Assembly: GCA_041937185.1 (NCBI GenBank)
Contig: CP166621.1
Coordinates: 2,388,571 to 2,452,570, forward strand
Direction: 5' to 3'
DNA: 64,000 nucleotides
Source: Leptolyngbya sp. BL-A-14
Lineage (GTDB): Bacteria; Cyanobacteriota; Cyanobacteriia; Leptolyngbyales; Leptolyngbyaceae
The translations under genes were made by a program, and so were the position numbers. Each line of letters starts with the position of its first letter. Positions within the stretch are counted from its first letter, which is position 1. Positions 18,973 through 57,253 of this stretch are shown one piece after another. The notes beneath the pieces were generated by a model. The model worked only from the letters and a program-made list of their open reading frames with translations. It was not told where the DNA came from and ran no database searches.

Positions 18973-19057
18973 GGAGTGGGATATGGAGGTAGAAGAGGCA
19001 GTTTCAGTCCCTGGTCTACAATGAAAGCAAGCAGATCCTAGCCTTAGGAGACGATTT

Positions 19058-19695: not shown

Positions 19696-19755
19696 ATTTG
19701 AAGTGAACAACTTGGCACAATGGCGGTTGGGCTGTAACACCATAAGCGGTTTCGG

Positions 19756-20583: not shown

Positions 20584-20709
20584 TAACTTATTCCAAAATT
20601 AAACATCAATTTGAGCGTGGCGAGAAAGGCTACGATTTGGTGTCAATTGTTCCTTTGAATAAAAGTGCAATGTCTCTGCAGAGATAGGCTAATAACTTAT
20701 TAAGCAGCC

Positions 20710-29654: not shown

Positions 29655-29871
29655 CTTTGACACTTGATATGCAAGCTGCGGTTGTCTCTACAAAATAGTT
29701 GAGTAATCGCAGCAAGCTCGCAATTATGATATGTAGCGCTTGAACAAAAATTGATCGTGATGAGTTCAAAATTGCCTGCAATGGAACTGTACCGTTAATG
29801 ACCAGTAATCGCTGCACGTTTGTCTGCTGCAAGGCTCGTTTAAACCTGCAAGTTCATTTTGCAACTCGTCC

Positions 29872-42942: not shown

Positions 42943-43323
42943 TCAGTTTTTTTGCCTTTCGCCCTTGCTTCCCCTGCTTCCCCTGCCTCTCTGCTCCTCA
43001 CCCTCAGCATCAATTTCCGCTCGCCAACGGTAAGCACGCAAGTTGATGCGTCCTTGAGCGTCGAACTGAATGCCTTCGGCTTCGAGGAGCGATCGCTGTA
43101 AATGATCACTGCCGTAGCGCACAGGCGATTCGGAGATCTCGCCCTTCGCGTTAATCACTCGATGCCAAGGGAGATCCATTTCTGGTGCTACACGAAACAG
43201 TGCGTAGCCGACTAAGCGTGCTCGTCCCGGCAAGTTTGCCAACTCTGCCACTTGTCCGTAAGTTGCTACCTGACCGTAGGGAATTTGTTGCACGATCGCG
43301 TAGATTGCATTGTAGGAAGACAT
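42943..43323 (-). CDS. Alkyltransferase-like (ATL) protein with an MGMT-family DNA-binding domain and no catalytic Cys
   Basis: Helix-turn-helix YGQVAELANLPGRARLVG, and PWHRVINAKG where Ogt/Ada have PCHRV. Confidence 0.75.
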   Translation of the reverse strand: MSSYNAIYAIVQQIPYGQVATYGQVAELANLPGRARLVGYALFRVAPEMDLPWHRVINAKGEISESPVRYGSDHLQRSLLEAEGIQFDAQGRINLRAYRWRAEIDAEGEEQRGRGSRGSKGERQKN

Positions 43324-43362
43324 AAAGGAAAGAATAAAGGCTTAAGGATAAAGGATAAGTTT

Positions 43363-44067
43363 TTAGCCTTCATACTTCTCTCTTCCTCCCTGCCGTCGCC
43401 AGAAAATTGCAACGCGTTCTTCCCATTGCTGCCAGTAATGACTGATGGTCTCAAGGTCAAACCAGAAGACTTCAGCGGGCAGATCGGGAATGGCGATCGC
43501 CAGCAGCGCATGATTCAAGTCCAAATCATAATCCTGGTAGGTGTGCTGCACGGCTCCCCAATAGGCAACGACCTGCAAAGGGTAATCGTTCAAGCGGTCT
43601 AAGGAATGTTTGGGACGATCGGCAGTTTTCCATTCACACAAGCACGCCATGCCCTCGTAACTGGCAACACAATCGACTTTTCCGGCATAACCAAGCTCGT
43701 GATGAAAGACAGTGCCTTCGACGAGTCGCACATCATCTACCGCTAGAATTACAGGCTTAATGCTCTCCCAATAGGGTTTGATGCCATCGGGGCAAGATAC
43801 AACCTCACCTTGCAGATACCGCTGCACCTGTTTGTGCGTCCCGGTGCCGCGCCGACTCGCTGTACTGGTGATACGAGCCGCTTCTTCAGTACCGACTCGT
43901 TCTTTCCAATGGGCAAGCGCATCCCGCTGTTGCTGCGATCGTGTCGCATTGAGAATGGTGCTGACGCTGGGCAAGCGATCGCCACGATCGTTCACGTAAT
44001 ACTGCCTGCCGTTTTGCCGCTCTTGTTTTGCGCTGAAAATAGGAAGCTTTTGAGAGTCAGACATCAT
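43363..44067 (-). CDS. PD-(D/E)XK nuclease family protein (phage exonuclease / Cas4-like fold)
   Basis: GT..H, GKVDCV...EWKT (D, E-x-K) nuclease motifs. Confidence 0.55.
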   Translation of the reverse strand: MMSDSQKLPIFSAKQERQNGRQYYVNDRGDRLPSVSTILNATRSQQQRDALAHWKERVGTEEAARITSTASRRGTGTHKQVQRYLQGEVVSCPDGIKPYWESIKPVILAVDDVRLVEGTVFHHELGYAGKVDCVASYEGMACLCEWKTADRPKHSLDRLNDYPLQVVAYWGAVQHTYQDYDLDLNHALLAIAIPDLPAEVFWFDLETISHYWQQWEERVAIFWRRQGGREKYEG

Positions 44068-44433
44068 ACCGTTGCGGCAGTTGTGTTCAGTTCACCTTTC
44101 TGGATTGTAGTCTTTCTGTACTGCTTAAACCGATGTCTATGCTCCATGTTAAGAAAGGCGAGCGTCTCAAAAAAACAGCCATTGGAAGCACCCAAACATA
44201 AATTACGCCTAATCAACTGGGAAACCGTATAATTTATTCTTAATCTACTATTTATCGATAGATTTACCGTATATTATTTTGAAACATCAATACGGCTAAC
44301 CTCAACCGCCAATGTCGCCCAACGACTGGTCTGGACTCTCGGCAGCAGTAAGTTGCCAATTCGTCGAGTCTCAGCAGTTCTTGGCGAAGCATTTGCGCGT
44401 GCCAGGGTCGGCAGAACGTCCAAAGGAGTGACA

Positions 44434-44907
44434 GTGAAGAACGTACGACGGGTCAGTGAGAAGTTGACTGTGACTGGGCAAGTGCAACCAGACCAACTTC
44501 AACAAGCAATTCAAGAAGGGTTTAAGTCTGTTTTGAACTTACGATCGCCAGATGAACTGGGCTTTGAAAAAGACGAACAACAGCTTGTAGAAGCACTGGG
44601 ACTGCATTACGTGCATATGCCGCTGAAGCTAGAGGCGATCGACGAAAACCTGATTACCGCCATTTTGAACCAGTTGGAACATATGCCTAAGCCTGCAATT
44701 GTGCATTGCGCTGCTGGGTTTCGATCAGCGTCGATCGCCATTTTGAGCCTTGCCATTCAAGAAGGGTTAACTCCAGAGCAAACTCTGGCCAAAGCGCGAC
44801 AGCTTGGGTTTGATTTTTTCGACTACGCCTGCGTCAATCCTCAGTTAAAGCAACGCTTTATGCGATATGTGAACGGGCGTGCAAAGGTAGCTGCAATCGC
44901 GAGCTAA
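44434..44907 (+). CDS. DUF442/TIGR01244-family CX5R phosphatase-fold protein
   Basis: HCAAGFRS (C-x5-R) P-loop. GTG start at 44434 is preceded by aaggag 6 nt upstream; the ORF opens at 44353. Confidence 0.6.
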   Translation: MKNVRRVSEKLTVTGQVQPDQLQQAIQEGFKSVLNLRSPDELGFEKDEQQLVEALGLHYVHMPLKLEAIDENLITAILNQLEHMPKPAIVHCAAGFRSASIAILSLAIQEGLTPEQTLAKARQLGFDFFDYACVNPQLKQRFMRYVNGRAKVAAIAS

Positions 44908-44936
44908 TGAACTCCCCACTCCCTACTCCCCACTCC

Positions 44937-45599
44937 TTACCGATGATTTTGTACGCCCACTTGCTGGCACATCTCAAGCAGTGGGCAGGTTGAACAACGA
45001 GGTAAATCGCCGGTGCAAATGTGTTTGCCAAACGGCACCAGTCGTTCGTTGATTTCAATCCAGTAACGCTGGGGTAACTTTGCTTCCAGCGCTGGCAACG
45101 TTTTTTCGGGGTTGCGCGTTTGCACATAGCCCCAACGGTTCGTGACGCGATGCACATGAATATCGACGCTGATGGATGACTGCTTGCAAGCAATGCCCAA
45201 CGTGAGATTGGCACATTTAGGGCCGACACCTGAGAAAGAGACGAGCGTATCAAAATCGCAGGGAAGCTCGTCACCATAGGTGTCCACAAGTTGGCGAGCG
45301 ATCGCCCAAATCTGCGGTGCCTTGGTTTCGTGAAAAGTCGAGTCGCGGATCAGGTCTTCAATCTCATCTGTGGTGAGGCGTACCATTGCTGACGGGGTGC
45401 GGGCGCGATCGAACAATTTGATCGCAACTGGAAGTGACGTTTCATCCCTCGTACGAATGGAGATGATGCAGGCAATGAGTTGCTCAAATGGCGACGTGTA
45501 GCCCAGTTCTGCCAACGCAAACATCGCTGCTTTCGGGAAGGGACGAACGGCTTCTCGCAGCAAGATCATTGCCTGATCAATATCAAAGGGTGGTTTCAA
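44937..45599 (-). CDS. nth: Endonuclease III (HhH-GPD glycosylase with 4Fe-4S cluster)
   Basis: FSGVGPKCANL helix-hairpin-helix with catalytic Lys, VDIHVHRV Asp, C-x6-C-x2-C-x5-C (CTGDLPRCSTCPLLEMC). Confidence 0.8.
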   Translation of the reverse strand: MKPPFDIDQAMILLREAVRPFPKAAMFALAELGYTSPFEQLIACIISIRTRDETSLPVAIKLFDRARTPSAMVRLTTDEIEDLIRDSTFHETKAPQIWAIARQLVDTYGDELPCDFDTLVSFSGVGPKCANLTLGIACKQSSISVDIHVHRVTNRWGYVQTRNPEKTLPALEAKLPQRYWIEINERLVPFGKHICTGDLPRCSTCPLLEMCQQVGVQNHR

Positions 45600-45742
45600 A
45601 AGGCTGAATGATGAAGGCTAAAGGCTAAAAAGGGTTGAAAGATAAGAGCGATCGCTTTATCCTTCATCCTTAATACTTTAGACTTCAGTCTTTGCCTTCC
45701 TTCAACAGGTAGAATATCTACGACCAACGTAAGGAATCCACT

Positions 45743-46615
45743 ATGTCTCAGGCAGCGATCGGCATTATTGGCGGCAGCGGACTCTACAAAATGGAGGCGC
45801 TAAAGGATGTAGAAGAAGTGACGATCGACACGCCCTTTGGCAAACCGTCGGATGCCATCATTCTGGGGACGATCGACGGTACGCGGGTAGCGTTTTTGGC
45901 ACGGCATGGCAGAAACCACCATCTCACGCCATCAGAACTGCCGTTTCGCGCCAATATCTACGCGATGAAAAGCTTAGGCGTACAGTATTTGATTTCTGCT
46001 TCCGCCGTTGGGTCGCTTAAGCAAGAAGCCAAGCCGTTGGATATGGTCGTGCCGGATCAGTTCATCGATCGCACTAAAAATCGCATCTCCACCTTCTTTG
46101 GCGATGGCATTGTTGCCCATATTGCCTTTGGTGATCCCGTTTGTCACAATCTGGCAGGGGTTTTAGCCGATGCCGTTGAAAGCCTCAATCTTACCGATGT
46201 CACACTGCATCGTGGTGGTACGTATGTGTGTATGGAGGGTCCTGCCTTTTCGACTAAAGCCGAATCCAACCTGTATCGCAGTTGGGGTGCGACCATCATC
46301 GGGATGACCAACCTGCCAGAAGCCAAACTGGCGAGAGAAGCTGAGATTGCCTACGCCACGTTAGCACTAGTGACGGACTACGACTGCTGGCACCCCGATC
46401 ATGACAGCGTCACCGTCGATCTGGTCATTGCCAATCTTCAGCGCAATGCCGTCAACGCGCAAAAAGTGATTCAAGAAACCGTCCGTCGCCTCACGGAGAA
46501 TCCACCGGCATCTGATGCCCATTCGGCACTCAAGTACGCGATTCTCACACCGTTGGATAAAGTGTCGGACGCAACAAAGGCGAAGCTGAATTTGCTGCTC
46601 CAAAAGTATCTTTAA
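45743..46615 (+). CDS. mtnP: S-methyl-5'-thioadenosine phosphorylase
   Basis: [11 protein letters not shown]-terminus and the PNP/MTAP family core. Confidence 0.9.
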
Positions 46616-46619
46616 CAAA

Positions 46620-47108
46620 TTATGCAGACGGTGGAGGAATAATCTCGATGCCGTATTGAGGCGCGGTGGTTAGAATTTTGTCCAAGTCTTCAGGGCTCAA
46701 CGGAACCCCGGGCGTAATCTGACCATTCACAGCCTTGCCAACGTCAGCAATAAAATGCTCAAAGCCAGCAGGAGTCACCCAAATCATGACTTTGGCGGGC
46801 GTAGCAGTCGTATTGGTAAAGCGGTGAAGCTGACCTTTGGGCGAATGCAGGAACGTGCCAGCGCTAGCAACGAGGGTACGATCGTCAAGCTGAAACTCGA
46901 TCTCTCCTTCTTGCACGTAGAATGATTCATTTTCGCGTGTATGCCGATGGGGAGGTGTACCCCCTTGAGGTGCCACAATGACCTCAAAGAGTGCATACGC
47001 TTCACCCGTCTCTTCACCAATGGCCTTAAAGGTATAGAGGTCTTGACCGAAGTAGTAAGAACGTCCCTGACCAGGCTCAACAAATAGTCCGTTCTGATGA
47101 ATTGTCAT
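46620..47108 (-). CDS. Cupin domain protein
   Basis: GTPPHRHTRENESFYVQEGE, the cupin motifs G(X)5HXH...E and G(X)5PXG(X)2H. Confidence 0.7.
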   Translation of the reverse strand: MTIHQNGLFVEPGQGRSYYFGQDLYTFKAIGEETGEAYALFEVIVAPQGGTPPHRHTRENESFYVQEGEIEFQLDDRTLVASAGTFLHSPKGQLHRFTNTTATPAKVMIWVTPAGFEHFIADVGKAVNGQITPGVPLSPEDLDKILTTAPQYGIEIIPPPSA

Positions 47109-47316
47109 GACAACCAGCACTCCTTTTCTCGTTAGTTAAAAGCAGCCAGTTAACTGCTTGATTTTAGCGTGAAGAAAAAATCGCATCGCAGCCGCCAGAT
47201 AAGATTTGGAGGCAAGGGAGGAAAAACCGCATTTGCGACCCTGGCAATATCGGCAACGAAGAGTAAAGTATAAAAGGAACGATTGCTCGTCCTGACAGTC
47301 TTTTGGGAGGCAACGG

Positions 47317-47538
47317 ATGCAACAGGTTAATCTCAAGGACGCTGCCACTCAATTAGCGGATCTTGTTGAAGCAGCAGCCAGCGGCGAGGACGTTGTGATT
47401 ACCCGCAGCGATGGTGCATCATTCCAAATTGTTCCACTTGCAAAGCCTCGCCCCAAGTTTGGCAGTGCAAAAGGCTTGGTGAGCATATCTGAGGACTTTG
47501 ATGCGCCTTTAGAAGCTTTTGAGGACTATGCTCCATGA
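47317..47538 (+). CDS. vapB: Type II antitoxin (Phd/YefM- or VapB-like)
   Basis: 73-aa protein; 4-nt overlap with the downstream PIN-domain gene. Confidence 0.7.
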   Translation: MQQVNLKDAATQLADLVEAAASGEDVVITRSDGASFQIVPLAKPRPKFGSAKGLVSISEDFDAPLEAFEDYAP

Positions 47539-47921
47539 AACTTCTGCTCGATACCCATACGTTTCTGTGGTTTATCGAGGGTAGCTCTAATCTGAGTAAT
47601 ACAGCAAGAAGCTTGATTGAGGATGCAAAAAATCAGCGCTTTCTAAGTGTCGCCAGCCTTTGGGAGATGTCAATCAAGGTCAGCATGAGTAAGCTGATGC
47701 TCCAGATGTCATTCACTGATCTGGTGACCCAACAAGTCTACGGTAATGCGATCAATCTGCTTGAAATTCGAGCAGAGCATCTAGATGAGTTAGCAAAAAT
47801 GCCATTCCACCACAAAGATCCATTTGACCGACTGATCGTTGCTCAAAGCATCGTGGACAACATGGCTGTGTTATCGAAGGACAGTGCATTTGGAAGCTAT
47901 CCAGTAACGTTATTATGGTGA
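47535..47921 (+). CDS. vapC: VapC PIN-domain ribonuclease toxin
   Basis: LLLDTHTFLW (Asp1 region) ... SLWEMSIK ... PFDRLIVAQS conserved acidic residues of the PIN fold. Confidence 0.8.
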   Translation: MKLLLDTHTFLWFIEGSSNLSNTARSLIEDAKNQRFLSVASLWEMSIKVSMSKLMLQMSFTDLVTQQVYGNAINLLEIRAEHLDELAKMPFHHKDPFDRLIVAQSIVDNMAVLSKDSAFGSYPVTLLW

Positions 47922-48001
47922 GTCGATCGCCTCGCTTCAGAACTGATATTAGATTTCGCGATGCTTCACCTGACTGAATTAAGAGCGGCGATCGCTTGTA
48001 C

Positions 48002-48598
48002 TCAAAAGTAATCATTGATTGGATTTTTCTTCGCCCAAGATGCTACAGCACGTTCTACATCGTCTAAATTACCATCGACACCACGAATCCAGTGCTTGTA
48101 TTCATCACTGGGCAAACAAGAAGCAGCATAAATAAAAGCACGACGAATCCATGGAGTCATTTGGTTAAGGGATAATTTTCGACTGCGAAACCAAAAATCT
48201 TTCTTGCTTCGCCCCATAGCCAACAAAATTTCCCGCTTTGAGAAATCATCATCGAGCGCGTCATTATAAAGCTTGACATATTGGTCTTTTGAATTCCACT
48301 CTATATCTAATGCAAATGGTCTCAATAAATACATTCGGGAGTATTCGAGATGTGATGCAGTTGAAGTCTCATCCTTGTAAAAGCGGATGAGATCTTTACC
48401 AAGCAAAGACTTATCTGCAGGTGATAATGTGTCAAGTCTGAGCAAGTATTCAATGGTTTCACGTATTACTGGAACAAATTTACTGAAGTTATCAAAGATG
48501 GAGTCAAGTACAGCCGTATCACTAAGCTGCCCCAATCGTCGTAACAAAAACTTCAATAAGGAAAGATCTGGTTCTTCTTCTTCAATCTGCTCGTATAG
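48002..48598 (-). pseudogene. C-terminal helical-repeat portion of a defence-type reverse transcriptase gene, separated from its 5' part by the IS630 insertion
   Basis: The frame LYEQIEEEEPDLSLLKFLLRR... continues exactly from the sequence upstream of the IS once the IS and one TA copy are removed. The apparent ATG at 48613 lies inside the IS terminal repeat. Confidence 0.7.
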
Positions 48599-48615
48599 TA
48601 CAGCGTGTTGCATAA

Positions 48616-49221
48616 CTAATTGGTACAGTAACAGCAGTGAGCAAAGTAGTTTCGCAAGTCCCTACTCGAACAGAGGCTAACGCCCAGTTGTAATAGCTTT
48701 GTAATGGTTTCTACACTCTTCGGTACAAACCGCCGGATAAACGACTTCAACTGCCACCACAGGTGTTCAATCGGGTTGAACTCAGGTGAGTACGGCGATA
48801 AGTAAACAACCCTGGCTCCGACCGCTTCGATCATCTGCTCTATCCCTTCAACTTTATGGGCTTTGAGGTTATCCATCACCACCACTGCCCCCGGCCACAA
48901 CTTCGGGACGAGACGTGCGGACACAAACTGTTTGAAGTCTTCTCCTGTCATCGATTTGCCCAACGTTTGCATCGCCAGGATGGCGGTTTGACTAATCGCC
49001 CCAACGACGGTGATCCGGCGACCGCGGTAGAAGGGTTTGAGGTCATACACTCGTTGTCCCTTACAACTTCTTCCCCTGGTCTGCTTAACCCTTGCAGCAC
49101 TCCCATCTCGTCCAGGAAGACTAAATTTTCTGGCAGAACCGTACTGATCGTCCGCCAGTAGGCAACTCGTTGTGCTTGCTTATCCGCTGCTGCGGCTTGA
49201 GCACTGCGACAGGTTTTTTTT
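48616..49221 (-). CDS. IS630 transposase, DDE catalytic part (-1 frame; reached by programmed frameshift)
   Basis: LVFLDEMGV, DNLKAHK and SPYSPEFNPIEHLW DDE motifs. The frame stays open upstream of the first ATG back to the A8 run (49214-49221). Confidence 0.8.
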
Positions 49222-49560
49222 AACCGTTAACTGCTGTTTTTGCAAGAATCGGCACATCGTACTTTCACTCACACTCACCCCGGTTTTGTCTTGCCAATAC
49301 TCGCAATACTCTGCCAATGTATAGTCCTGGTGTGTCTCAACCATCTCTGCGATGTTCTGTTCATAGCCTGCCAGTTGGCTTGCCTTACCGCCTGTTGCTG
49401 GAGCAGGCTTCAGTGTTCCTGTGGCTTGCTTGCGCTTGAGCAACGACTGAACCGTATTTTTGCTGACCTGAAATCTCTCTGCTACCTTCCGAATCGAAGT
49501 ATTGCCTGTCTCATAGGTACTGATAATTTTTTCGCGTAGGTCGAGGGAGTAGGGCTTCAT
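49180..49560 (-). CDS. IS630 transposase, N-terminal HTH part (orfA)
   Basis: Helix-turn-helix region REKIISTYETGNTSIRKVAERFQVSKNTV, ending just after the A AAA AAA AC slippery run. Confidence 0.8.
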   Translation of the reverse strand: MKPYSLDLREKIISTYETGNTSIRKVAERFQVSKNTVQSLLKRKQATGTLKPAPATGGKASQLAGYEQNIAEMVETHQDYTLAEYCEYWQDKTGVSVSESTMCRFLQKQQLTVKKNLSQCSSRSSG

Positions 49561-49617
49561 AGCTATCCAAGTGGAAGACTCTCTCTATTGTGCCAAACCG
49601 TCGTGCAAAACGCTGTA

Positions 49618-50619
49618 TATTTTCAAGGTTTAACTCGTCGATTGCCTTCTGGTATTCAGGCGATAGAGCATCATAATCAATTTCCTTGTAAGTGTCCTCA
49701 ATATCCATCTCAGCGAGTAAATCATAAAAGCATAAAAGCGCTCAGACAAAGTTTCAAGTTCTCGCTTCTCATTTTCTTTAAGATAAATTCTTCGGAAAAC
49801 ATCTACCGAAACAATTTTTGTCTTGTTTTGCTGAAGTGTAAGTCCATGGTTATCGAGTAAAGAACGTGCAATGAGCGTAAGATATTTGTAAGCTTCAGCC
49901 TCAGAGTCACAAAAAATTCTGAAGTCGTCTGAGTAGCGAACGTATTTCGCATCTTCCGAAAGCAAGATCTGGTCAATATCAGAAATAGTTACTTCAGCAA
50001 TTAATCGCGAAGCCGCAGAACCGACAGGTATCCCGTACGAGTATGAACCTGCCCAGTGAGCAATTAAGTTCTTCAAAGCCTTTGCATGCATATGACCAAC
50101 ACCCAAAGCACTGTCCATAGCATTGTCAATGCGATGTGTATAAAGCCTTGGGAAAAAGTCTGCAATATCTGCAATCACAACATAGGACGAGTCATACTTC
50201 TCACATGCATCGTGTGAAGCCTTCTGAAAGCTTCGATATGTATACTGATCAGAGAACATCCGTCCATCACTGTTTGGGGAAAACCTATAAGAATGAACAA
50301 TATTTTCAATTGTTGAAATCCTTTCTGATTCCAGTTTTTCACCAATCTCCTTAATAAGTGCTGTAAATACTAAGAAATCGAGTGGATCAAGTTGTGTAGA
50401 AATGCGGAAGCCGAAGCGGTGCTTTGGAACTAAACGCCGCCTAAATGGTCTTACCTTCCACGCTAATATGTCAGCCTCTTGAATTGATGCTTTAATTTTA
50501 TTCCAGTTATCTTCAATTGCATGAAATTCAAAAATATCAGGAAATATATCAGTATCGCCTGATGTAAGAGCATGCTTCAAAGCCCAATTCAAAGAAGAGT
50601 CCGTAAGTGTTAACGGCAT
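49618..50619 (-). pseudogene. Reverse transcriptase (Abi/UG-class, defence-associated type), N-terminal RT domain; frameshifted and interrupted by IS630
   Basis: RT motifs SYVVIADIADFFPRLYTH (motif A), GIPVGSAASRLIAEV (motif B) and YVRYSDDFRIF (motif C, YxDD). A 1-nt frame change near 49709-49745 moves to the frame ...MDIEDTYKEIDYDALSPEYQKAIDELNLENI, which crosses the IS boundary. Confidence 0.75.
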
Positions 50620-50794
50620 TTTGGCAGTAATTTCAATAGGATGAAGAAAGGATTAACAACTTAGACTGAAAGTTTGAGTTGATTGACCTTTTTCCGGAGT
50701 ACTTATCTAAACAGATTCGAATCACCTGTCGATTCTAGACAATTAAATCGAAAATCCCCAGTAACGCTTTTTCCCTCCAGAGTGATCGCTCTCC

Positions 50795-52774
50795 TCACAC
50801 CTTCACCACAACGCCTTTACTTTCTAAAGCCGATCGCCCAACGGCACACAGCGCATACACTCCTGATGGAAGAGTTGCGGTTGTGGTCGCAGCGGGGAGA
50901 ACCTGGCGGAGTGTCCAGGTATTGCCATTCTGTTGATAGAGTGTCCAGCCACGAATGTCTTGAGGTGACGCATTCCAGGTGAGCTTACCATTGCTACTTT
51001 GAACGCCTGTGGGAAGGTTAGGTGGAGCCGCATTAAGCCAGGGCATGGAGGGAGGTAGCGAAAGGTTGGCGTAGGTTTCTGTGCGGAAGCGATCGCCAAT
51101 GCCTTGATGGTTTGCTGTCAGTGCTTTCGCGCTAAAAAACACGTTGCCCAGTGCCAGTTGGGGCGTGAGTTGCCGAGTTAGCTCGATCTGGTTCAGAATC
51201 TCGGCTAGATCCCACTGGTTGCCGCTTAATGCGCCCAAATTGTTGCCAGGATAAAGGTGTCGCTGCTTGGGATTATTGTCCGTCCACCAGCGCAGCAAAA
51301 CGGGGTAGCTCTGTGCGGGAGCATCAATCCGCCAGTAAAGCTGAGGCGACAGGTAATCGACCCAGCCTTCCTGTAACCATTTGAGGGAATCGGCGTAAAG
51401 CTGGTTGTAGGCATCCAATCCCTGGATTTGCGCGGGCTGACCGGGGCGATAAATGCCAAACGGGCTGATGCCAAATTTGACGTGAGGTTTAGCGGCACGG
51501 ATGCCCGTAGAAAGGCGTTGAATCAGGCGATTCACGTTGTCTCGTCGCCAGTCTGCCAGGGAGAGCGCCCCACCACCCGCTTTGTATGTCTGGTAGGTTT
51601 TGTCATCGGGAAAGGTTTGTCCAGCGATCGGATACGGGTAAAAATAATCATCCAGATGAATGCCATCCACATCGTATCGACGCACCACATCGAGAATGAC
51701 ATTCGCAGTGCGGTCTTGCACGACCTTTGCCCCAGGATCCATCCAAAGCTGCTTATCCCAGCGATACACCACGTCTGGATTGGTCACTGCCATGTGAGGG
51801 CTGACATTGACGATGCGTTCAGACGTACGGGCACGATAGGGATTGAACCAGGCATGCACTTCAATGTTGCGTTGATGAGCCTGGGCGATCGCAAACTCTA
51901 ATGGATCGTAAAAGGGATCGGGGGCTTTACCCTGAGTGCCCGTCAGCCAGGAACTCCAGGGTTCCAACGATGAACGGTAGAGCGCATCCCCTTCGGGGCG
52001 CACCTGCAAAATCAACGCATTCAGGTTCAACGCCTGCATGCGATCCAAAATGGCAATCAGTTCTGCCTGCTGCTGCTGGGTGGAAAGCCCTGCTTTAGAG
52101 GGAAAATCGCCATTCCAGACGCAGGCAACCCAGGTCGCGCGGAATTCTCGCGTGTGGGAGACGGCAACCGTTTTCACCCACGGCACGATCGCACTGGAGT
52201 CGATCGCAGGTGCTTTCCCCAGAGCCACCAGACATTGATAGACAAAAGCCGCAATTTCGGCGCGAGTCGCGGGTTGGGTGGGTCGCAGACGGCGCAAATC
52301 AGGGTAATTGACCACAATTTCGTTTGCGGTGGCAGTGGCGATCGCGTCGATCGCCCAACCAGCAATTTGAGCGTTGTCCTGATAAAGCGTTGCTAATGGC
52401 ACAGAAGCCTCGGATGCCAGGCCCAAACCACCCACCAACGACGCTAACGCCTGCACTCTGGGAATGTTCTCATTCGGACGAAATTGCTGTCCCGGATAGC
52501 CCGTTAAAAAGCCCCCTTCGTACGATCGACGAATGGCACCTGCTGCCCAGTGAGTCGTTGGCACATCCACAAAGGGCACATAGGGGCGGGTGGCAGCCGG
52601 GCTAAACGCGGCTTGCAGCACAGAGGCAAACTCTGCGCGAGTCATGGCGCGTTCGGGGCGAAAGGAACCATCCTCAAAGCCACGCATGATGTTGCGTTGC
52701 GCCAAAGCCTCAATAAAGGGACGCGCCCAATGGGTTTGAATATCGGGGAAACCAGAAGCGACCATACACAGCAA
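50795..52774 (-). CDS. SLH-domain glycoside-hydrolase-like family 10 (GHL10/DUF187) protein
   Basis: Three N-terminal S-layer homology repeats (WARPFIEALAQRNIMRGFEDGSFRP...), then a GHL10 TIM-barrel region (EVHAWFNPYRA). Confidence 0.7.
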   Translation of the reverse strand: MLCMVASGFPDIQTHWARPFIEALAQRNIMRGFEDGSFRPERAMTRAEFASVLQAAFSPAATRPYVPFVDVPTTHWAAGAIRRSYEGGFLTGYPGQQFRPNENIPRVQALASLVGGLGLASEASVPLATLYQDNAQIAGWAIDAIATATANEIVVNYPDLRRLRPTQPATRAEIAAFVYQCLVALGKAPAIDSSAIVPWVKTVAVSHTREFRATWVACVWNGDFPSKAGLSTQQQQAELIAILDRMQALNLNALILQVRPEGDALYRSSLEPWSSWLTGTQGKAPDPFYDPLEFAIAQAHQRNIEVHAWFNPYRARTSERIVNVSPHMAVTNPDVVYRWDKQLWMDPGAKVVQDRTANVILDVVRRYDVDGIHLDDYFYPYPIAGQTFPDDKTYQTYKAGGGALSLADWRRDNVNRLIQRLSTGIRAAKPHVKFGISPFGIYRPGQPAQIQGLDAYNQLYADSLKWLQEGWVDYLSPQLYWRIDAPAQSYPVLLRWWTDNNPKQRHLYPGNNLGALSGNQWDLAEILNQIELTRQLTPQLALGNVFFSAKALTANHQGIGDRFRTETYANLSLPPSMPWLNAAPPNLPTGVQSSNGKLTWNASPQDIRGWTLYQQNGNTWTLRQVLPAATTTATLPSGVYALCAVGRSALESKGVVVKV

Positions 52775-53119
52775 TTTTTGAGTTTATTATCCTCTAAGAA
52801 TTAGATACTGAGCGATTAACCTTTTGTGCATCAGGCGGGTGTTCAACGCTCTTTTCGTCTTTCCTGTATCCTGCTGTTCATACAATTCTTGGCTACGTTA
52901 CGGTATCTTGCCGGGGGACTTCCCCCCGGTCCCCCGCTATGTGGGGTCCTAACTCCCCCACGCCCCCCGAAAGGGGTTGCTTGTTTAAAGCAAGGTCTGG
53001 TTGAGCTGACTCAGGCATATGTAACCCTGGACTATTCCACAGTTCATACTTTACGAGGGTTAGGGATGGAGAAGTGCTTTTAAGCCAGCTCAATCTTCTA
53101 AACTCAAACGTCCCAAGCT

Positions 53120-53848
53120 TTAGACATCAAAATCTAGAGACATTTGTTGCGTCAGCGATTCATCGGGTTGAACGGGTTGGTCGATCGCCGGACCCGATGC
53201 CAGTTTGTGAGCATGGCGAGTCGTTTCAGGAAGCCGATATTTCGTGGTGCAGCGCATGACGTAGGCGATCGCGGTTTCTAAACTTACTCGATGTCCCGGT
53301 GAAATGTAGAGGGGTTTGGTGCCGGGACGGGTTCGCAAGGCTGCACCAATGGTTTCGCCTTTGTGGATGAGGGGCTGCCAACTGCCGCGATCGTCCGACA
53401 GTTCGGCATGCTTACCCACCAGGATGGATTTACCCACACCGATCGTTGGCACATTGGCTAAAAGCCCGATATGACACGCAATCCCAAAACGGCGCGGATG
53501 AGCAATGCCCTGACCATCACATAGCAGCATGTCTGGGATGATCGTGACTTTTGCCAGCGCATCCAGAACAGCAGGCACTTCACGAAAGGATAGGAAGCCG
53601 GGAATGTAGGGAAAGGTTGTGGGGCGACGGGCGATCGCGCGATCCTGGAGTTGCAAGTCGTCGAGATTGAGGACAGCGATCGCGGCACGAGTAATGGTTC
53701 CTTCAGATTCAAAGCCCACGTCTACTCCCGCTACGCGGCGAATCGTGTCAAAGTCATCGATCGTCACAACGTCTTTGCGGAGTTCTTGCTGAATGGCGGT
53801 TGCTTCTTCTGCCGTTAGCACCCATTCGTGGCGTTGGATGATGTTCAT
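53120..53848 (-). CDS. nfi: Endonuclease V (deoxyinosine 3' endonuclease)
   Basis: GVDVGFE (catalytic Asp), [10 protein letters not shown] and [15 protein letters not shown] motifs. Start at MNIIQRH. Confidence 0.88.
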
Positions 53849-54006
53849 GGGGAGACGTGGGGGAAAGGTGGAAGGAGCAAGGAGTCTAGCCTGAATGCAA
53901 TGATTGGCGCTCTCAGAGGTTTCTAAGAACGCCAATCGATGGCAGACACTTATTGTTTAGGCTAACAAGATTGTTTAGGGTGAATCCAATTGCGTAACGA
54001 GTCTGC

Positions 54007-54300
54007 TCAACTTGCTGAAGTAGAGACGTAACGTTGTTCAATCCAGATACGCATCTCGGCTTCAGAAGCATCGCGGAGCGATCGCCCAGTGACGGGATCA
54101 TCCGCATGCCACCAAAGACGGCCCTCATTGTCACAGGTATACCAGACCCTTGGTTCTGCATCTGCCATCAGGCGCTGTACAAAGAATTGTGCCGCTTGTT
54201 CTAGCCAGGAAGTCGATGGGCGTTGGCTTTGATTGAACAGGTCTGGCTGTGGGAACAAAGCCCATGACTGGTGACCGAACCAACGTAATGCTAATTTCAT
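54007..54300 (-). CDS. Hypothetical protein
   Basis: 97-aa ORF; ATGA overlap with the upstream DMT transporter gene. Confidence 0.4.
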   Translation of the reverse strand: MKLALRWFGHQSWALFPQPDLFNQSQRPSTSWLEQAAQFFVQRLMADAEPRVWYTCDNEGRLWWHADDPVTGRSLRDASEAEMRIWIEQRYVSTSAS

Positions 54301-55307
54301 CTTGATACCTCCGTCGATGACAATTTGGTTAATGACAACTCAGTTGATGACAATTCAGTTAACGACAACTCAGTTGATGGAAATTCAGTGGCTATCAAGG
54401 ACGCGGCCTGTTCAGGAAGACGTTTCCTGCCGAACCATTGAGCAATCGTGCTTTGCCCCTGACTGAGAGCCATAGCGGCTAAAATGAGTCCGGCCCCCGT
54501 GATGCCGCGTCCGCCAAAGTGTTCGCCTAACAACCAGAACGAAAAGATAGCTGCAAACACTGGCTCAAGGGTGTAGATTAGAGCCGTTTCGTGGGCTGAA
54601 ACCCAACGCTGGGCAATAGCTTGTGTAATCGTGGTCAATGCAGTCACCACAAGCCCCAGGTAAAGGAGTTGCCCCCCATGAGAGGCGATCGCGTCCCATT
54701 CTGCCACCATGTCAGGGGCCGCCCAGATCACACTAACTCCAGCCACCAAAATTAACTGAATCGCCGATAGCGCTATCGGCGGGTGACGGATTGTCGCAGA
54801 CTCCAGCAGCAGAATGTAGACGGCATAACTGAGGGCACCCCCAAATACCCACAGGTCGCCAATACTCAAACCACAACCCTCCCAGGACATGATCCCAATG
54901 CCTGTGATCGCCAGTCCGGCAGCAACAATCACCATGATGGGTAGCCGACGACCGAGAAAAAGCCCCAGCAGGGGCACGAGAATGACGTTTAAGCTCAGCA
55001 CAAAGGCCGCTTGACCCGCTGCGATCGTTTCCACGCCCACGGTCAGGGTAATGTAGGATGCTAGGTAGAATACGCCTAGGAGCAACCCATCACGCAAAAG
55101 TCGGGCGTTCATGTGACGAAGCCAGGGAGCAAACACGAGCGCTGCCAGCAGAAAACGAATGGCAATCAGCACCATTGGTGAAATGCTGACCACTGCTTCT
55201 TTAAGAACTGGAAACGTCGTGCCCCAGACAAGGGTCGTCGCGACGAGTAGCAAGATGCCTCTGGTATGAAGCAGGCTAGATTTTGTAACAGACATAACAG
55301 AAAGCAA
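54297..55307 (-). CDS. DMT-superfamily (EamA) transporter with a repetitive C-terminal tail
   Basis: Ten TM helices and two EamA halves. The last approx 30 aa, STELSLTELSSTELSLTKLSSTE, are encoded by tandem 15-nt repeats. Confidence 0.75.
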   Translation of the reverse strand: MLSVMSVTKSSLLHTRGILLLVATTLVWGTTFPVLKEAVVSISPMVLIAIRFLLAALVFAPWLRHMNARLLRDGLLLGVFYLASYITLTVGVETIAAGQAAFVLSLNVILVPLLGLFLGRRLPIMVIVAAGLAITGIGIMSWEGCGLSIGDLWVFGGALSYAVYILLLESATIRHPPIALSAIQLILVAGVSVIWAAPDMVAEWDAIASHGGQLLYLGLVVTALTTITQAIAQRWVSAHETALIYTLEPVFAAIFSFWLLGEHFGGRGITGAGLILAAMALSQGQSTIAQWFGRKRLPEQAASLIATEFPSTELSLTELSSTELSLTKLSSTEVSR

Positions 55308-55394
55308 ACTCGAACTGTGTTCACTTTAGTCAATTCACTTTACATAAATCAAAAGACAGCTCTTATCACGTCTATGAACAAAATCGATGGAAAG

Positions 55395-55585
55395 AGAGAA
55401 GTTTTGAGTGTTGAGTTTTGAGGGTTGAGTTTTGAGTGTTGAATAGCGCTTCGCGCCGCTACGCTAGAAAGTTTTGAGTTTTAGCCTTTAGCCTACTGCT
55501 CCGCAGAAGCAAGCTATAGCCTTTAGCCTTCATCCCTCATCCTTCATCCCCCATCCCTCACCTCCTGCCTCCTGCCCTCTGCCTT
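55395..55585. repeat. STRR-like arrays (GTTTTGA units, then TTCATCC/CTGCCT units)
   Basis: gttttgagtgttgagttttgagggttgagttttgagtgttg ... ccttcatccctcatccttcatcccccatccctcacctcctgcctcctgccctctgcc. Confidence 0.8.
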
Positions 55586-55603
55586 CCTATGCACGGCGAG
55601 ACC

Positions 55604-56521
55604 ATGAACACAAACCGTCAAAGTCAAATCAAGCTATCACAACTACGGGCTCTCGTTGCTGTAGCCGAGCGAGGCAACTTTGGTGAAGCGGCACTGCAGT
55701 TGGGGCTTTCACAGTCAGCAGTAAGCCATGCGATCGCCACTTTGGAAGAGATGTTGGGCGTTGTGCTGATCTCACGGGGGCGTCATGGAGCCTATTTAAC
55801 GCCCGTTGGCGATCGTGTTTTGACATATGCTCGCCAGATGATGCAATCGTTAGACGGCATGATGAAGGAAGCCAATCTAGCCAAAGGGTTGCAGGGGGGT
55901 CAGGTACGGATTGCCTCCTTTCGCAGCGTCGCTACCCACATTTTGCCAGAGGCGATCGCTCAGTTTCGACAACGCTTTCCCGATATTACCGTTCACCTTA
56001 GCGATCACGAAGACTTGCCAGAAGTCGAGCAAACGCTGCGAGAAGGACGGGCTGATATCGGCTTTACCTATTTGCCAACAAGTGAAGATTTTGAGGTTTG
56101 GGAACTCCTTCAAGATGAATTTGTAGCACTCTTCCCATCTACATTCAGGTCAAAAGGTGCGCGTCTGACGTGGGAAGAACTCGCGCATCATCCCATCATC
56201 ATGCCCCCCGAAACCGATCCCACCATGCTGCAATTTTATGCCCATTGCCTTAAGTTCAATTGCACTCTAAATGTTGCCTATCGTGTCAATACTGATTCGA
56301 CGATCGTCAGCATGGTCGCTCGTGGTTTGGGAGCAGCAGTCCTCCCTCGGTTAGCGGCTGAGCCCATTCCTGCTGACGTGCAAATTTTCAGCTTGCCTGT
56401 ACCGATCTATCGCATTATTGGGATTGCTGTACTCGCGGATGCTTTACAAGTTCCTGCCGTCTTCGCGTTTTTAGACATTTTGAAGTGTAAGGATTTACTG
56501 CCTCCCAAGCTAACGTTATAA
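55604..56521 (+). CDS. LysR-family transcriptional regulator
   Basis: N-terminal HTH LSQLRALVAVAERGNFGEAALQLGLSQSAVSHAI and C-terminal substrate-binding domain. Confidence 0.88.
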   Translation: MNTNRQSQIKLSQLRALVAVAERGNFGEAALQLGLSQSAVSHAIATLEEMLGVVLISRGRHGAYLTPVGDRVLTYARQMMQSLDGMMKEANLAKGLQGGQVRIASFRSVATHILPEAIAQFRQRFPDITVHLSDHEDLPEVEQTLREGRADIGFTYLPTSEDFEVWELLQDEFVALFPSTFRSKGARLTWEELAHHPIIMPPETDPTMLQFYAHCLKFNCTLNVAYRVNTDSTIVSMVARGLGAAVLPRLAAEPIPADVQIFSLPVPIYRIIGIAVLADALQVPAVFAFLDILKCKDLLPPKLTL

Positions 56522-56656
56522 GCATGTGAGCCGTTCTAAAACTTTAGCAAAAATCCTCTGTGTAGACGCATTTCTCCTCATTTCCTCAAAAAGTTGATTG
56601 AGTATCAGGAATGGCTATTCTAACGAGTGTAGTTCTCTTTAAACTTACAAGTCTTA

Positions 56657-57253
56657 ATGCGGATGTCAACACCGGAAGAGAAACGCGATTTTTTGCTTAA
56701 AGATTTTAGCGCAATTAGCAGTATTCGTATAAGTTATGCAAGTATGAGACTTGCTGCCTTAGGCACAGTCCTAACACTTATCGGCGGTATTATTGCGTTT
56801 AGCAAAAACATTGCCTATCCTGATATTTTTGGCATTTATATAGTGCTATTACTTATAGTTTTCACTGGTATCAGGATCATCTCTGTCCACAATCGGGCAA
56901 TCTATGTGTTTCTTAGTTACCTTAAATGGGTCGAAGAGGAGATTGGAGAAATTGGCTTTTCCTCTCAGTGGAGCCGCTACATTCGCTTTAATCAGCGCGA
57001 TAGTGGTAGCTACGCCTTTGTCGTTGCAACGCGCGCGATGAATTTTGCAACTACTTTTTATATTGTGTTTGATTCCAGCTTAAAACTGCCTGCAAACATA
57101 GCTGTAGTGGTAGTATCTATCTTGATAGCAATCTGTGTGTGGAACGAAGTCTATATTCGCCGCCAGCTTGATCCAAAAGGTTTCGTTGATAGAATTAGCA
57201 AAGAATTAATTAGAGCACGAGAGCTTTGTCTAAAAGAACGTGGGCAGTTGTAA
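56657..57253 (+). CDS. Hypothetical membrane protein (AT-rich orphan)
   Basis: 198 aa, three to four TM helices, about 40% GC. Confidence 0.45.
   Translation: MRMSTPEEKRDFLLKDFSAISSIRISYASMRLAALGTVLTLIGGIIAFSKNIAYPDIFGIYIVLLLIVFTGIRIISVHNRAIYVFLSYLKWVEEEIGEIGFSSQWSRYIRFNQRDSGSYAFVVATRAMNFATTFYIVFDSSLKLPANIAVVVVSILIAICVWNEVYIRRQLDPKGFVDRISKELIRARELCLKERGQL

What the first reader, a model, noticed from the sequence alone, without database searches (positions are those of the whole stretch)
48002..50619. Defence-type reverse transcriptase (RT plus helical C-terminal domain) inactivated by an IS630 insertion and a 1-nt frameshift, with an exactly reconstructible pre-insertion ORF
The minus-strand ORF 50619..49630 carries RT motifs A, B and C (DIADFF, GIPVGSAASRLIAEV, YVRYSDDF) in a compact approx 290-aa domain with no endonuclease, maturase or retron msr/msd context; this layout is typical of Abi/UG-class (AbiA/AbiK/DRT-like) RTs. 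Removing the IS (48601-49615) and one TA copy joins ...DELNLENI directly to LYEQIEEEEPDLSLLKF..., a 198-aa helical-repeat tail. This gives an approx 535-aa RT plus alpha-repeat protein like class 1 UG/Abi RTs. The whole locus is AT-rich (about 38% GC) and sits next to a VapBC pair, consistent with a decaying defence island.
Basis: seen in the sequence. Interest (0 to 1): 0.75.

Follow-up and report, generated by a model that had tools for sequence, protein, structure and literature searches.

The report
Dead DRT8 anti-phage reverse transcriptase gene
This is a horizontally acquired copy of a known anti-phage reverse transcriptase (DRT8/UG7) in a Leptolyngbya-like cyanobacterium, recently inactivated by an IS630 insertion and an 8-bp duplication, so it is an ordinary pseudogene of a known defence family.

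Summary
The minus-strand gene 50619..48002 is broken by a 1015-bp IS630-family element (48601-49615, TA duplication). The second lesion is an 8-bp tandem duplication (GCTTTTAT x2, 49739-49724), not a 1-nt frameshift. Removing the IS, one TA and one 8-mer gives a clean 530-aa ORF.

An intact allele exists in a metagenome contig (P0001/L001). It is 97% identical in protein, has syntenic flanks, a single 8-mer and an empty TA site.

The protein matches the PADLOC Drt8 (UG7) model end to end (E 9e-158). A model of the intact allele folds as RT plus an all-helical C-terminal domain. Its best PDB matches are DRT6, DRT4/UG15, AbiK, Abi-P2 and AbiA.

It belongs to the stand-alone UG7 branch. No PD-(D/E)XK partner is present here or in 42 related loci.

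dN/dS against the intact allele is 0.05, so the inactivation is recent. The RT segments are 39% GC, but the IS is 50%, like the genome.

The neighbours are a Phd/PIN toxin-antitoxin pair and housekeeping genes. "Decaying defence island" is not supported. Known family, dead copy, low interest.

The parts
49732..50619 (-). DRT8/UG7 RT gene, segment 1: codons 1-296. It holds the N-terminal DTDIFP..FE motif, motif A D151/D154, motif B GIPVGSAAS and motif C Y229-S-D231-D232.
   Evidence: translation; RVT_1; Drt8 HMM; conserved catalytic columns
49724..49739 (-). 8-bp tandem duplication GCTTTTAT|GCTTTTAT. The extra copy shifts the frame after Tyr296 and gives the annotated 329-aa truncated product (stop at 49630).
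   Evidence: The intact allele L001 has a single copy. All homologues read SERFY(D/E)LL.
49616..49723 (-). DRT8 gene, segment 2: codons 297-332 (DLLAEMDIEDTYKEIDYDALSPEYQKAIDELNLENI). It is out of frame with segment 1. The last two bases (49617-49616) are one copy of the TA target duplication.
48601..49615 (-). IS630-family insertion sequence, 1015 bp. Terminal inverted repeats lie at about 48601-48630 and 49586-49615, flanked by a TA/TA duplication (48599-48600, 49616-49617). The transposase reading frame is broken twice.
   Evidence: HTH_Tnp_IS630, DDE_3; inverted repeat I1, 32 nt, 75%; end motif found only at these two sites at 0 mismatches; three-frame translation; weak DNA hits to annotated IS630 transposases
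48002..48598 (-). DRT8 gene, segment 3: codons 333-530 plus stop. This is the bulk of the all-helical C-terminal (alphaRep-type) domain.
   Evidence: (helical domain; full-length structural matches to Class 1 UG/Abi RTs)
50620..50794 (-). Upstream intergenic region (38% GC) between the GHL10/SLH gene and the RT start. It is presumed to hold the promoter and 5' UTR. No conserved RNA element was detected.
   Evidence: conserved only with the orthologous locus L001, 85%; no Rfam match; no promoter call above chance
47317..47921 (+). Neighbouring type II toxin-antitoxin pair: a Phd/YefM-like antitoxin (47317-47538) overlapping a PIN-domain VapC-like toxin (47535-47921). It converges on the RT gene. 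This is context only; no functional link is shown.
   Evidence: PIN E 2e-13; PhdYeFM 25.2 bits, below the 29.8 cut-off; no PADLOC hit

Best explanation
The locus is a pseudogene of a stand-alone DRT8 (UG7) defence-associated reverse transcriptase, a Class 1 UG/Abi enzyme with an RT domain and a C-terminal helical alphaRep-type domain. The low-GC gene was acquired horizontally by a Leptolyngbya-like cyanobacterium. It sits between a GHL10/SLH gene and a Phd/PIN toxin-antitoxin pair.

Two independent lesions destroyed it recently. An 8-bp tandem duplication after codon 296 shifts the frame. An IS630-family element inserted at a TA in codon 332 separates the RT core from the helical domain.

Shown: the identity, the boundaries, both lesions, the exact reconstruction, an intact orthologous allele, the absence of a nuclease partner and of any ncRNA, and strong purifying selection until recently.

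Inferred from characterised relatives (AbiK, Abi-P2, AbiA, DRT4, DRT6), at roughly 50-60% confidence: the intact protein would oligomerise through the helical domain. It would make DNA without a template, primed from one of its own tyrosines. Candidates are Tyr308 in the RT/alphaRep linker, as in AbiA, or Tyr111 in the conserved S-Y-R motif. Phage infection would turn that DNA product toxic, giving abortive infection.

In this genome the function is lost. The truncated 329-aa product lacks the helical domain, which is essential in related enzymes.
For: Identity and structure:
- PADLOC Drt8 HMM at E 9.3e-158 over the full length, far above all other UG groups.
- Nuclease-linked and stand-alone relatives hit the same model with similar scores.
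- UG7 is Class 1, was named DRT8, and protects against T5 (Mestre 2022, PMC9226505).
- The AF2 model of P0001 has pLDDT 88.8 and is helical from 287 to 523.
- The top PDB fold matches are DRT6, UG15/DRT4, Abi-P2, AbiK and AbiA, aligned over 520-625 columns. The profile search also finds DRT4/UG15 first.
- The catalytic residues D151, Y229, D231, D232 and K266 are retained.

Lesions and intact allele:
- The intact 530-aa allele P0001 is 97% identical. Its contig L001 aligns to both gene halves and to both flanks of the window.
- dN/dS is 0.05 at dS 0.23 against that allele, and is equally low in both halves.

No partner and no RNA:
- No conserved adjacent gene is found in 42 loci at 39% or more RT identity. 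RTasPDDEXK appears only next to RTs at ~30% identity.
- No homologue of it is in the window.
- There are no Rfam hits.

Mechanism and defence context:
- The precedent for protein-primed, template-independent synthesis in Class 1, and the variable priming-Tyr positions, come from PMC12783706.
- Neighbours of stand-alone relatives elsewhere include Pycsar, Thoeris, Lamassu and PD-Lambda-1.
Against: - No DRT8 enzyme has been characterised biochemically. A May 2026 review lists its mechanism as not established.
- The only DRT8 tested for defence is the nuclease-associated variant, in which the PD-(D/E)XK partner is required. Defence activity of the stand-alone branch, and its product chemistry, are therefore extrapolations.
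- No tyrosine is invariant across the whole family. Y308 is 41/42 in the close clade, but the linker aligns poorly in the distant clade. Y111 is 62/74.
- The window itself shows no defence island.
- The order of the two lesions cannot be determined.
- The lesions were not checked against raw reads.
Confidence: 0.88

Rival explanations
1. The RT belongs to the nuclease-dependent DRT8 variant, and its PD-(D/E)XK partner has been deleted from this locus. The system would then have decayed by gene loss as well.
For: In the only experimentally tested DRT8 the PD-(D/E)XK protein is required. Both variants hit the same Drt8 HMM.
Against: - RTasPDDEXK neighbours occur only beside RTs ~28-31% identical to this one (L076, L080, L082, L083).
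- None of 42 loci at 39% or more identity has a conserved adjacent gene.
- The orthologous intact allele L001 runs from the same upstream gene to the same downstream flank, with no room for a partner.
- tblastn of four partner proteins against the window finds nothing (best E 0.07).
Confidence: 0.03
2. The RT is a retron, group II intron or DGR reverse transcriptase with an unrecognised RNA or template partner nearby.
For: Weak sub-threshold NCBIfam hits to group II RT/maturase (63.9 bits) and to retron St85 RT (40.3 bits). Group II RT structures appear among the fold matches for the RT core only.
Against: - Those scores are far below their cut-offs (300 and 235 bits).
- The Drt8 model scores 524.6 bits over the full length.
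- There is no Rfam family, including group II intron domains, in 47200-51200 at E<=1 or in the whole window at gathering score.
- No TR/VR-like repeats lie within 43000-56000.
- The upstream region is not conserved beyond the orthologous locus.
- The C-terminal domain is alphaRep-like, not maturase X.
Confidence: 0.01
3. The two lesions are assembly or sequencing artefacts, and the gene is intact in the living organism.
For: The source appears to be labelled as a MAG (name attached to P0104). No raw reads could be examined.
Against: - The IS has proper inverted repeats and a TA target duplication at an exact in-frame junction. That is a transposition signature, not a chimeric join.
- An 8-bp perfect tandem duplication is not a typical homopolymer or long-read error.
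- The contig is a 7.19-Mb near-complete chromosome.
Confidence: 0.04
4. The locus is still functional as a split system. A truncated RT core and a separately translated alphaRep fragment (ORF 48002..48613, which starts at an ATG inside the IS end) would assemble in trans.
For: The IS right end supplies an in-frame ATG at 48613, giving MQHAV+LYEQIEEEE... (203 aa). Both halves are still free of further stops.
Against: - The 8-bp duplication removes residues 297-332 from any product and adds 33 missense residues to the RT core.
- The absence of further decay is explained by recency (dN/dS 0.05).
- No promoter signal above chance is found.
- No split UG7 occurs among the 79 loci examined.
Confidence: 0.03

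Closest known systems
DRT8 / UG7, stand-alone variant (Mestre et al. 2022, NAR 50:6084; PADLOC model PDLC03783)
   Same: - Full-length HMM match.
- Same length (~526-530 aa) and the same RT plus helical C-terminal architecture.
- No adjacent partner gene, like the ~165 UG7 members Mestre describes as unassociated.
- 60-97% identity to many intact cyanobacterial, proteobacterial and other copies.
   Different: This copy is a pseudogene, with an 8-bp duplication and an IS630 insertion. The stand-alone variant has not itself been shown to defend against phage.
DRT8 / UG7, PD-(D/E)XK-associated variant (the experimentally tested system; T5 protection)
   Same: Same RT family and the same HMM. The RT catalytic motifs and the N-terminal DTDIFP..FE motif are shared.
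   Different: Only ~28-31% identical. The tested system needs an adjacent RTasPDDEXK nuclease, which is absent here and throughout the close clade.
DRT4 (UG15) and DRT6 (UG12): single-gene Class 1 UG/Abi RTs with solved hexamer structures
   Same: They are the best structural and profile matches (9wy8, 9l9s, 9vdo). Both are single-gene systems with RT plus alphaRep. They are the likely mechanistic model: protein-primed, template-independent ssDNA synthesis and abortive infection.
   Different: - Only 15-17% sequence identity.
- The NCBIfam Drt4 score is 85.9 bits against a cut-off of 450, so this is a different UG group.
- The DRT4 priming Tyr125 position is not conserved as Tyr here (position ~126-128 is variable).
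AbiK / Abi-P2 / AbiA abortive-infection polymerases
   Same: Class 1 fold. The model aligns full-length to AbiK with TM 0.61. A conserved Tyr in the RT/alphaRep linker (Y308) recalls AbiA's Tyr298/303 priming site.
   Different: Distant in sequence (PADLOC AbiK 70.8 bits). AbiA carries an extra HEPN domain. None of these is a UG7 member.
IS630 family (Tc1/mariner-like bacterial IS; ISY100-type cyanobacterial elements)
   Same: HTH_Tnp_IS630 plus DDE_3 transposase, TA target duplication, short terminal inverted repeats, about 1 kb.
   Different: The transposase frame is broken twice, once inside the DDE_3 domain. This copy is probably non-autonomous.

Membership tests
UG7 / DRT8 reverse transcriptase | Full-length best match to the family profile, clearly above other UG/Abi groups | tested here: met
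   PADLOC Drt8 at 524.6 bits, E 9.3e-158, residues 5-524 on profile positions 2-492/493. The runner-up is RT_UG21 at 155 bits.
UG7 / DRT8 reverse transcriptase | RT catalytic motifs (motif A Asp, motif C YxDD) present | tested here: met
   D151/D154 and Y229-S-D231-D232 are retained and are invariant or near-invariant in 74 family members. RVT_1 at E 6e-14.
UG7 / DRT8 reverse transcriptase | Adjacent PD-(D/E)XK nuclease (variant 1 only; required in the tested system) | tested here: not met
   No partner in the window or in 42 close-clade loci. RTasPDDEXK is found only beside distant RTs. This places the gene in the stand-alone variant described by Mestre 2022.
UG7 / DRT8 reverse transcriptase | Intact open reading frame, hence a functional system | tested here: not met
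   An 8-bp duplication and a 1015-bp IS interrupt the gene. It is a pseudogene of the family.
UG7 / DRT8 reverse transcriptase | Anti-phage activity that depends on the RT active site | not testable with these tools
   Reported only for a nuclease-associated UG7 in E. coli against T5.
Class 1 UG/Abi RTs | C-terminal alpha-helical repeat (alphaRep) domain fused to the RT | tested here: met
   The AF2 model of the 97%-identical allele is all-helical over 287-523 at pLDDT ~90. It aligns full-length to DRT6, UG15/DRT4, AbiK, Abi-P2 and AbiA.
Class 1 UG/Abi RTs | No associated structured ncRNA (unlike the ncRNA-containing systems DRT2, DRT3 and DRT9) | tested here: met
   No Rfam match. The upstream 180 bp and downstream 100 bp are conserved only with the orthologous locus L001, not with 84 other loci. 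A novel, poorly conserved RNA cannot be strictly excluded.
Class 1 UG/Abi RTs | [quoted passage not shown] | not testable with these tools
   The candidates are only Y308 (41/42 in the close clade) and Y111 (62/74).
IS630 family insertion sequence | DDE_3 transposase with an IS630-type HTH, terminal inverted repeats and a TA target-site duplication | tested here: met
   domains; IRs; TA/TA.
IS630 family insertion sequence | Continuous transposase ORF (autonomous element) | tested here: not met
   Two frame changes: one at the A8 run (~49221), and one between FLDEMG... and ...GRSCKGQRV inside DDE_3.
Retron RT | Family-level RT match plus an adjacent msr/msd ncRNA | tested here: not met
   Retron St85 RT scores 40.3 bits against a cut-off of 235. 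No RNA family hit.
Group II intron RT/maturase | RT plus maturase X domain inside a group II intron RNA | tested here: not met
   TIGR04416 scores 63.9 bits against a cut-off of 300, covering the RT core only. No intron RNA in Rfam scans.
Diversity-generating retroelement | Template and variable repeat pair near the RT | tested here: not met
   No direct repeats of 30 nt or more involving the locus within 43000-56000.
VapBC-type toxin-antitoxin (neighbour) | PIN-domain toxin preceded by a small overlapping antitoxin gene | tested here: met
   PIN at E 2.3e-13. The 73-aa upstream ORF overlaps by 4 nt and has a weak Phd/YefM match (25.2 bits, below the 29.8 cut-off).

The most novel reading that the evidence does not exclude
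The disrupted locus is not dead but works as a split system. The IS630 end supplies an in-frame ATG (48613) that lets the alphaRep domain be made separately, and this fragment cooperates in trans with the truncated RT core. That would be a natural two-piece Class 1 UG/Abi enzyme.

A milder and more probable reading (~0.35) concerns the intact stand-alone UG7 clade. These enzymes may defend without the nuclease that the tested DRT8 needs, using DRT4-like toxic DNA synthesis primed from the linker Tyr308.
Probability: 0.03. Interest if true: 0.5.

Novelty: new member of a known kind. Interest (0 to 1): 0.2.

Why it matters
It matters little on its own. It is a clean, datable example of a defence gene lost through IS insertion plus a small duplication, with the ancestral allele recoverable base for base.

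Its modest value has two parts:
- It flags the stand-alone UG7/DRT8 branch. This branch is highly conserved (73-79% identity between cyanobacteria and proteobacteria) and widespread. It often sits next to other defence systems, yet it is untested, and DRT8 is one of the DRT types with no established mechanism.
- The reconstructed or intact allele (P0001) is a ready candidate for testing whether DRT8 can work without its nuclease.

Tried and rejected
- Exact look-up of the truncated 329-aa product (P0104) in the contig index found nothing. The source genome is therefore known only from the name attached to P0104: Leptolyngbya sp. BL-A-14, 7.19-Mb contig.
- The genome-contig scan did not return the window's own genome.
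- All-vs-all clustering of 1584 neighbouring ORFs found no partner conserved in the close clade. An adjacent same-strand ORF listing agreed.
- Rfam at gathering score (whole window) and at E<=1 (47200-51200) gave no hits.
- The promoter and terminator scan found nothing above the shuffle expectation.
- The search for an intact reference copy of the IS in plasmids gave only short 72-81% hits to annotated IS630 transposases. The Oscillatoria copy is itself fragmented. I therefore could not tell whether the A8-run shift is programmed; the second shift, inside DDE_3, cannot be.
- The idea that L085's upstream 37-aa ORF is an IS5-type transposase C-terminus gave no Pfam hit. It remains a recollection only.
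- The 87-aa ORF 47752..48015 overlapping VapC on the opposite strand has no Pfam or PADLOC hit. I treat it as non-coding.
- The 1-nt frameshift reading is rejected in favour of the 8-bp duplication.
- The defence-island reading is rejected for this window.
Full report
**1. What is in the sequence**

On the minus strand, an ORF runs 50619..49630 (329 aa). It carries RT motifs A (DIADFF), B (GIPVGSAASRLIAEV) and C (YVRYSDDF) and matches Pfam RVT_1 (E 6e-14).

A 1015-bp element occupies 48601-49615.
- Its ends are imperfect inverted repeats (32 nt including the flanking TA, 75% complementary).
- The end motif CAGCGTKTTGCA occurs at 0 mismatches only at these two sites in the window.
- The element is flanked by TA at 48599-48600 and 49616-49617.
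- Its ORFs match HTH_Tnp_IS630 and DDE_3.
- Short DNA hits in the plasmid collection fall on genes annotated as IS630 family transposase.

This is an IS630-family insertion with the family's TA target duplication.

**2. Reconstruction**

The second lesion is not a 1-nt indel. The minus strand reads GAGC-GCTTTTAT-GCTTTTAT-GATTTAC, a perfect 8-bp tandem duplication (49739-49732 and 49731-49724). Removing one copy restores the frame and gives ...LSERFYDLLAEMDIEDTY....

The three segments concatenate to a 530-aa ORF with no other defect:

| Segment | Window coordinates | Codons |
|---|---|---|
| 1 | 50619-49732 | 1-296 |
| 2 | 49723-49616 | 297-332 |
| 3 | 48598-48002 | 333-530 plus stop |

**3. 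An intact allele exists**

The protein search returned P0001, a 530-aa protein 97% identical over 100% of the query. It reads SERFYDLLAEMDIEDTY...DELNLENILYEQI, which matches both repairs exactly.

Its 2169-bp contig (L001, ENA ERZ27286124) aligns to the window in two blocks. These stop at the IS boundaries: L001 37-1435 with window 51013-49615, and L001 1433-2052 with window 48600-47981.
- The first block extends into the 3' end of the upstream GHL10/SLH gene.
- The downstream flank is also recognisably homologous.
- L001 is therefore the same chromosomal locus in a related strain.
- It has a single GCTTTTAT and an unoccupied TA.

The truncated 329-aa ORF is identical to P0104, which NCBI names a reverse transcriptase domain-containing protein of Leptolyngbya sp. 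BL-A-14 on a 7.19-Mb contig. This is very probably the source of the window.

**4. What the protein is**

Against PADLOC the reconstructed protein matches Drt8 over its full length (524.6 bits, E 9.3e-158). UG21 follows at 155 bits, and DRT4, DRT6 and AbiK score under 100 bits. NCBIfam models for Drt2-5, group II RT/maturase and retron RTs are all far below their cut-offs.

Mestre et al. 2022 (PMC9226505) define DRT8 as UG7 and discuss it among Class 1 UG/Abi systems. They report T5 protection that requires the RT active site and the PD-(D/E)XK active site of an associated protein. They describe two phylogeny-congruent variants, one nuclease-associated and one with no associated gene.

An AlphaFold2 model of P0001, built with 27 homologues (pLDDT 88.8, pTM 0.87), has an RT core followed by an all-helical region over residues 287-523.

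Foldseek against the PDB ranks the following matches, each aligned over about the full length with TM up to 0.61:
- DRT6 (9wy8)
- UG15/DRT4 (9l9s, 9vdo)
- Abi-P2 (7r08)
- AbiK (7z0z)
- AbiA (8oz7)

Group II and DGR RTs match the RT core only. A profile search of PDB sequences also puts UG15/DRT4 first. No DRT8 structure was among the matches.

**5. Which variant**

The genome scan returned 79 loci.
- None of the 42 whose RT is 39% or more identical to this one has a conserved neighbouring gene.
- A ~231-248-aa ORF immediately downstream on the same strand appears only beside RTs at ~28-31% identity. The one tested matches PADLOC RTasPDDEXK (E 6e-64).
- Both kinds of RT hit the Drt8 model equally well.
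- tblastn of four such nucleases against the window finds nothing.
- Gene-call contexts of P0007, P0018 and P0056 agree: the RT stands alone.

This gene belongs to the stand-alone branch.

Neighbours of that branch in other genomes include Pycsar (PycC/PycTM), Thoeris (ThsA/ThsB), Lamassu LmuB, CapP, PD-Lambda-1 and a UG29 RT. This supports a defence role by association.

**6. RNA partners and rival RT classes**

- Rfam gives no hit in the whole window at gathering score, and none at E<=1 in 47200-51200.
- The upstream 180 bp and downstream 100 bp match only L001 among all loci held.
- No template-like direct repeats lie within 43000-56000.

Retron, group II intron and DGR readings are rejected.

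**7. History of the lesions**

The RT segments are 39.2% GC against 50.5% for the window. The IS is 50.1%. The gene is therefore foreign, and the IS looks resident.

Between the reconstructed gene and the L001 gene there are 67 synonymous and 15 non-synonymous differences (dS 0.23, dN/dS 0.05). dN/dS is similarly low in the 5' part (0.063) and the 3' part (0.037). No further stops or indels are present. The gene was under strong purifying selection for nearly all of that divergence, so both lesions are recent. Their order cannot be determined.

The IS transposase is itself broken:
- The HTH part reads in one frame up to an A8 run (~49221).
- The segment with the first catalytic Asp (LVFLDEMG) reads in a second frame.
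- The rest of DDE_3 is back in the first frame.

This copy is probably non-autonomous.

**8. Context**

Flanking genes:

| Coordinates | Family |
|---|---|
| 44353-44907 | phosphatase-like protein |
| 44937-45599 | HhH-GPD glycosylase |
| 45743-46615 | PNP_UDP_1-type phosphorylase |
| 46620-47120 | cupin |
| 47317-47921 | Phd-like/PIN pair |
| 50795-52774 | GHL10 plus SLH protein |
| 53120-53935 | endonuclease V |
| 54297-55307 | EamA transporter |

PADLOC finds no defence protein among ten of these flanking proteins. The only hit is a weak match of the HhH-GPD glycosylase to a nicking-endonuclease model. The locus is a solitary foreign gene next to a toxin-antitoxin pair among housekeeping genes. 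It is not a defence island.

**9. How it most likely worked**

Shown: an RT active site and a Class 1 alphaRep-type architecture, no partner gene and no detectable RNA.

Established for relatives (PMC12783706): AbiK, Abi-P2, AbiA, DRT4 and DRT6 synthesise DNA without a template, primed from one of their own tyrosines. The position of that tyrosine differs between families:

| Enzyme | Priming residue | Location |
|---|---|---|
| AbiK | Y44 | fingers loop |
| Abi-P2 | Y61 | fingers loop |
| AbiA | Y298 or Y303 | RT/alphaRep linker |
| DRT4 | Y125 | palm |

DRT4, DRT6 and AbiK form oligomers, and hexameric structures are solved for all three. In DRT4 the ssDNA product is stabilised by a phage DNA-binding protein and becomes toxic. 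In UG15 a 38-aa C-terminal deletion abolishes immunity.

Inference: intact stand-alone DRT8 works the same way. Candidate priming residues are Y308 and Y111.
- Y308 lies in a lower-confidence loop between the RT and the helical domain, and is conserved in 41 of 42 close-clade members.
- Y111 lies in a conserved S-Y-R motif and is conserved in 62 of 74 members.

A May 2026 review lists the DRT8 mechanism as not established. A library search found no dedicated study.

In this genome the product ends after residue 296 plus 33 missense residues and lacks the helical domain. The function is lost.

**10. Verdict**

This is a correctly spotted and accurately reconstructed pseudogene of a known defence RT family. 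The corrections are the nature of the frame lesion, the GC statement and the defence-island context. The refinements are the assignment to the stand-alone branch of DRT8/UG7, the existence of an intact orthologous allele, and recent inactivation. Novelty is low, and interest is low.

Noticed in passing
window 48616-49560 (minus strand, inside the IS): The IS630 transposase gene is itself broken by two frame changes. One is at an A8 run near 49221. The other is inside the DDE_3 domain, between LVFLDEMG... and ...GRSCKGQRV (about 49050-49100). The element that killed the RT gene is probably a non-autonomous, decaying copy.
   Followed up: partly
window 48002-48613 (minus strand): The 203-aa ORF covering the alphaRep tail starts at an ATG (48613) inside the right inverted repeat of the IS, in frame with the RT tail (MQHAV+LYEQ...). 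The insertion thus created a chimeric ORF. There is no evidence that it is expressed.
   Followed up: no
L085 1-1403 (JGI 3300082540, Ga0673000_0002960, contig end): A second damaged cyanobacterial DRT8 allele, 88% identical, holds only residues 146-526. The 257 nt upstream are unrelated and end a 37-aa ORF at the contig end. From memory this resembles an IS5-type transposase C-terminus, but it gave no Pfam hit. A BrnT/BrnA toxin-antitoxin pair lies just downstream. This may be an independent IS disruption of the same gene family, again beside a toxin-antitoxin pair.
   Followed up: partly
loci L006-L018 (genome-contig scan): The stand-alone UG7 branch is unusually conserved across phyla. Identity to the intact allele P0001 (97% identical to the reconstruction) is 69-79% in Egbenema, Acaryochloridaceae, Desulfocapsa, Thauera, Pandoraea, Pseudomonas, Cupriavidus and a Hydrogenedentota MAG. 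This implies recent inter-phylum transfer and/or strong constraint.
   Followed up: partly
reconstructed protein residues 22-31, 110-112 and 308 (window ~50556-50527, 50292-50284, 49690-49688): An N-terminal motif D-T-D-I-F-P-x-x-F-E is invariant or nearly invariant (72-74 of 74 at each position) across UG7 RTs of both variants. S110-Y111-R112 is nearly as conserved. Tyr308, in the flexible linker before the helical domain, is kept in 41 of 42 close-clade members. None of these has an assigned role. The two tyrosines are candidate protein-priming residues.
   Followed up: partly
neighbours of RT genes in the 29 closest-clade loci scanned (L006-L030, L035, L043, L044, L047, L048, L058): ORFs within ~3.5 kb of stand-alone UG7 genes include strong PADLOC hits to PD-Lambda-1, Pycsar PycC, Thoeris ThsA/ThsB, Lamassu LmuB, CapP, PD-T4-2 and a UG29 RT with its DnaG-like partner. 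The clade does sit in defence islands elsewhere, unlike in this window.
   Followed up: partly
window 54303-54362: An imperfect 30-nt tandem repeat (2 copies, 80% identical) lies at the 3' end of the EamA-family transporter ORF (54297-55307, minus strand).
   Followed up: no
window 19001-21000, 29001-30000, 56001-57000: Further low-GC kilobase bins (42-45% against ~51% for the window) may mark other horizontally acquired segments.
   Followed up: no
window 58681-58696 (minus strand): A 2-mismatch match to the IS end motif (CCGCGTGATGCACGAC) lies inside the 360-aa ORF 58606-59688. It is probably chance (0.37 matches expected by shuffling), but it was not examined.
   Followed up: no
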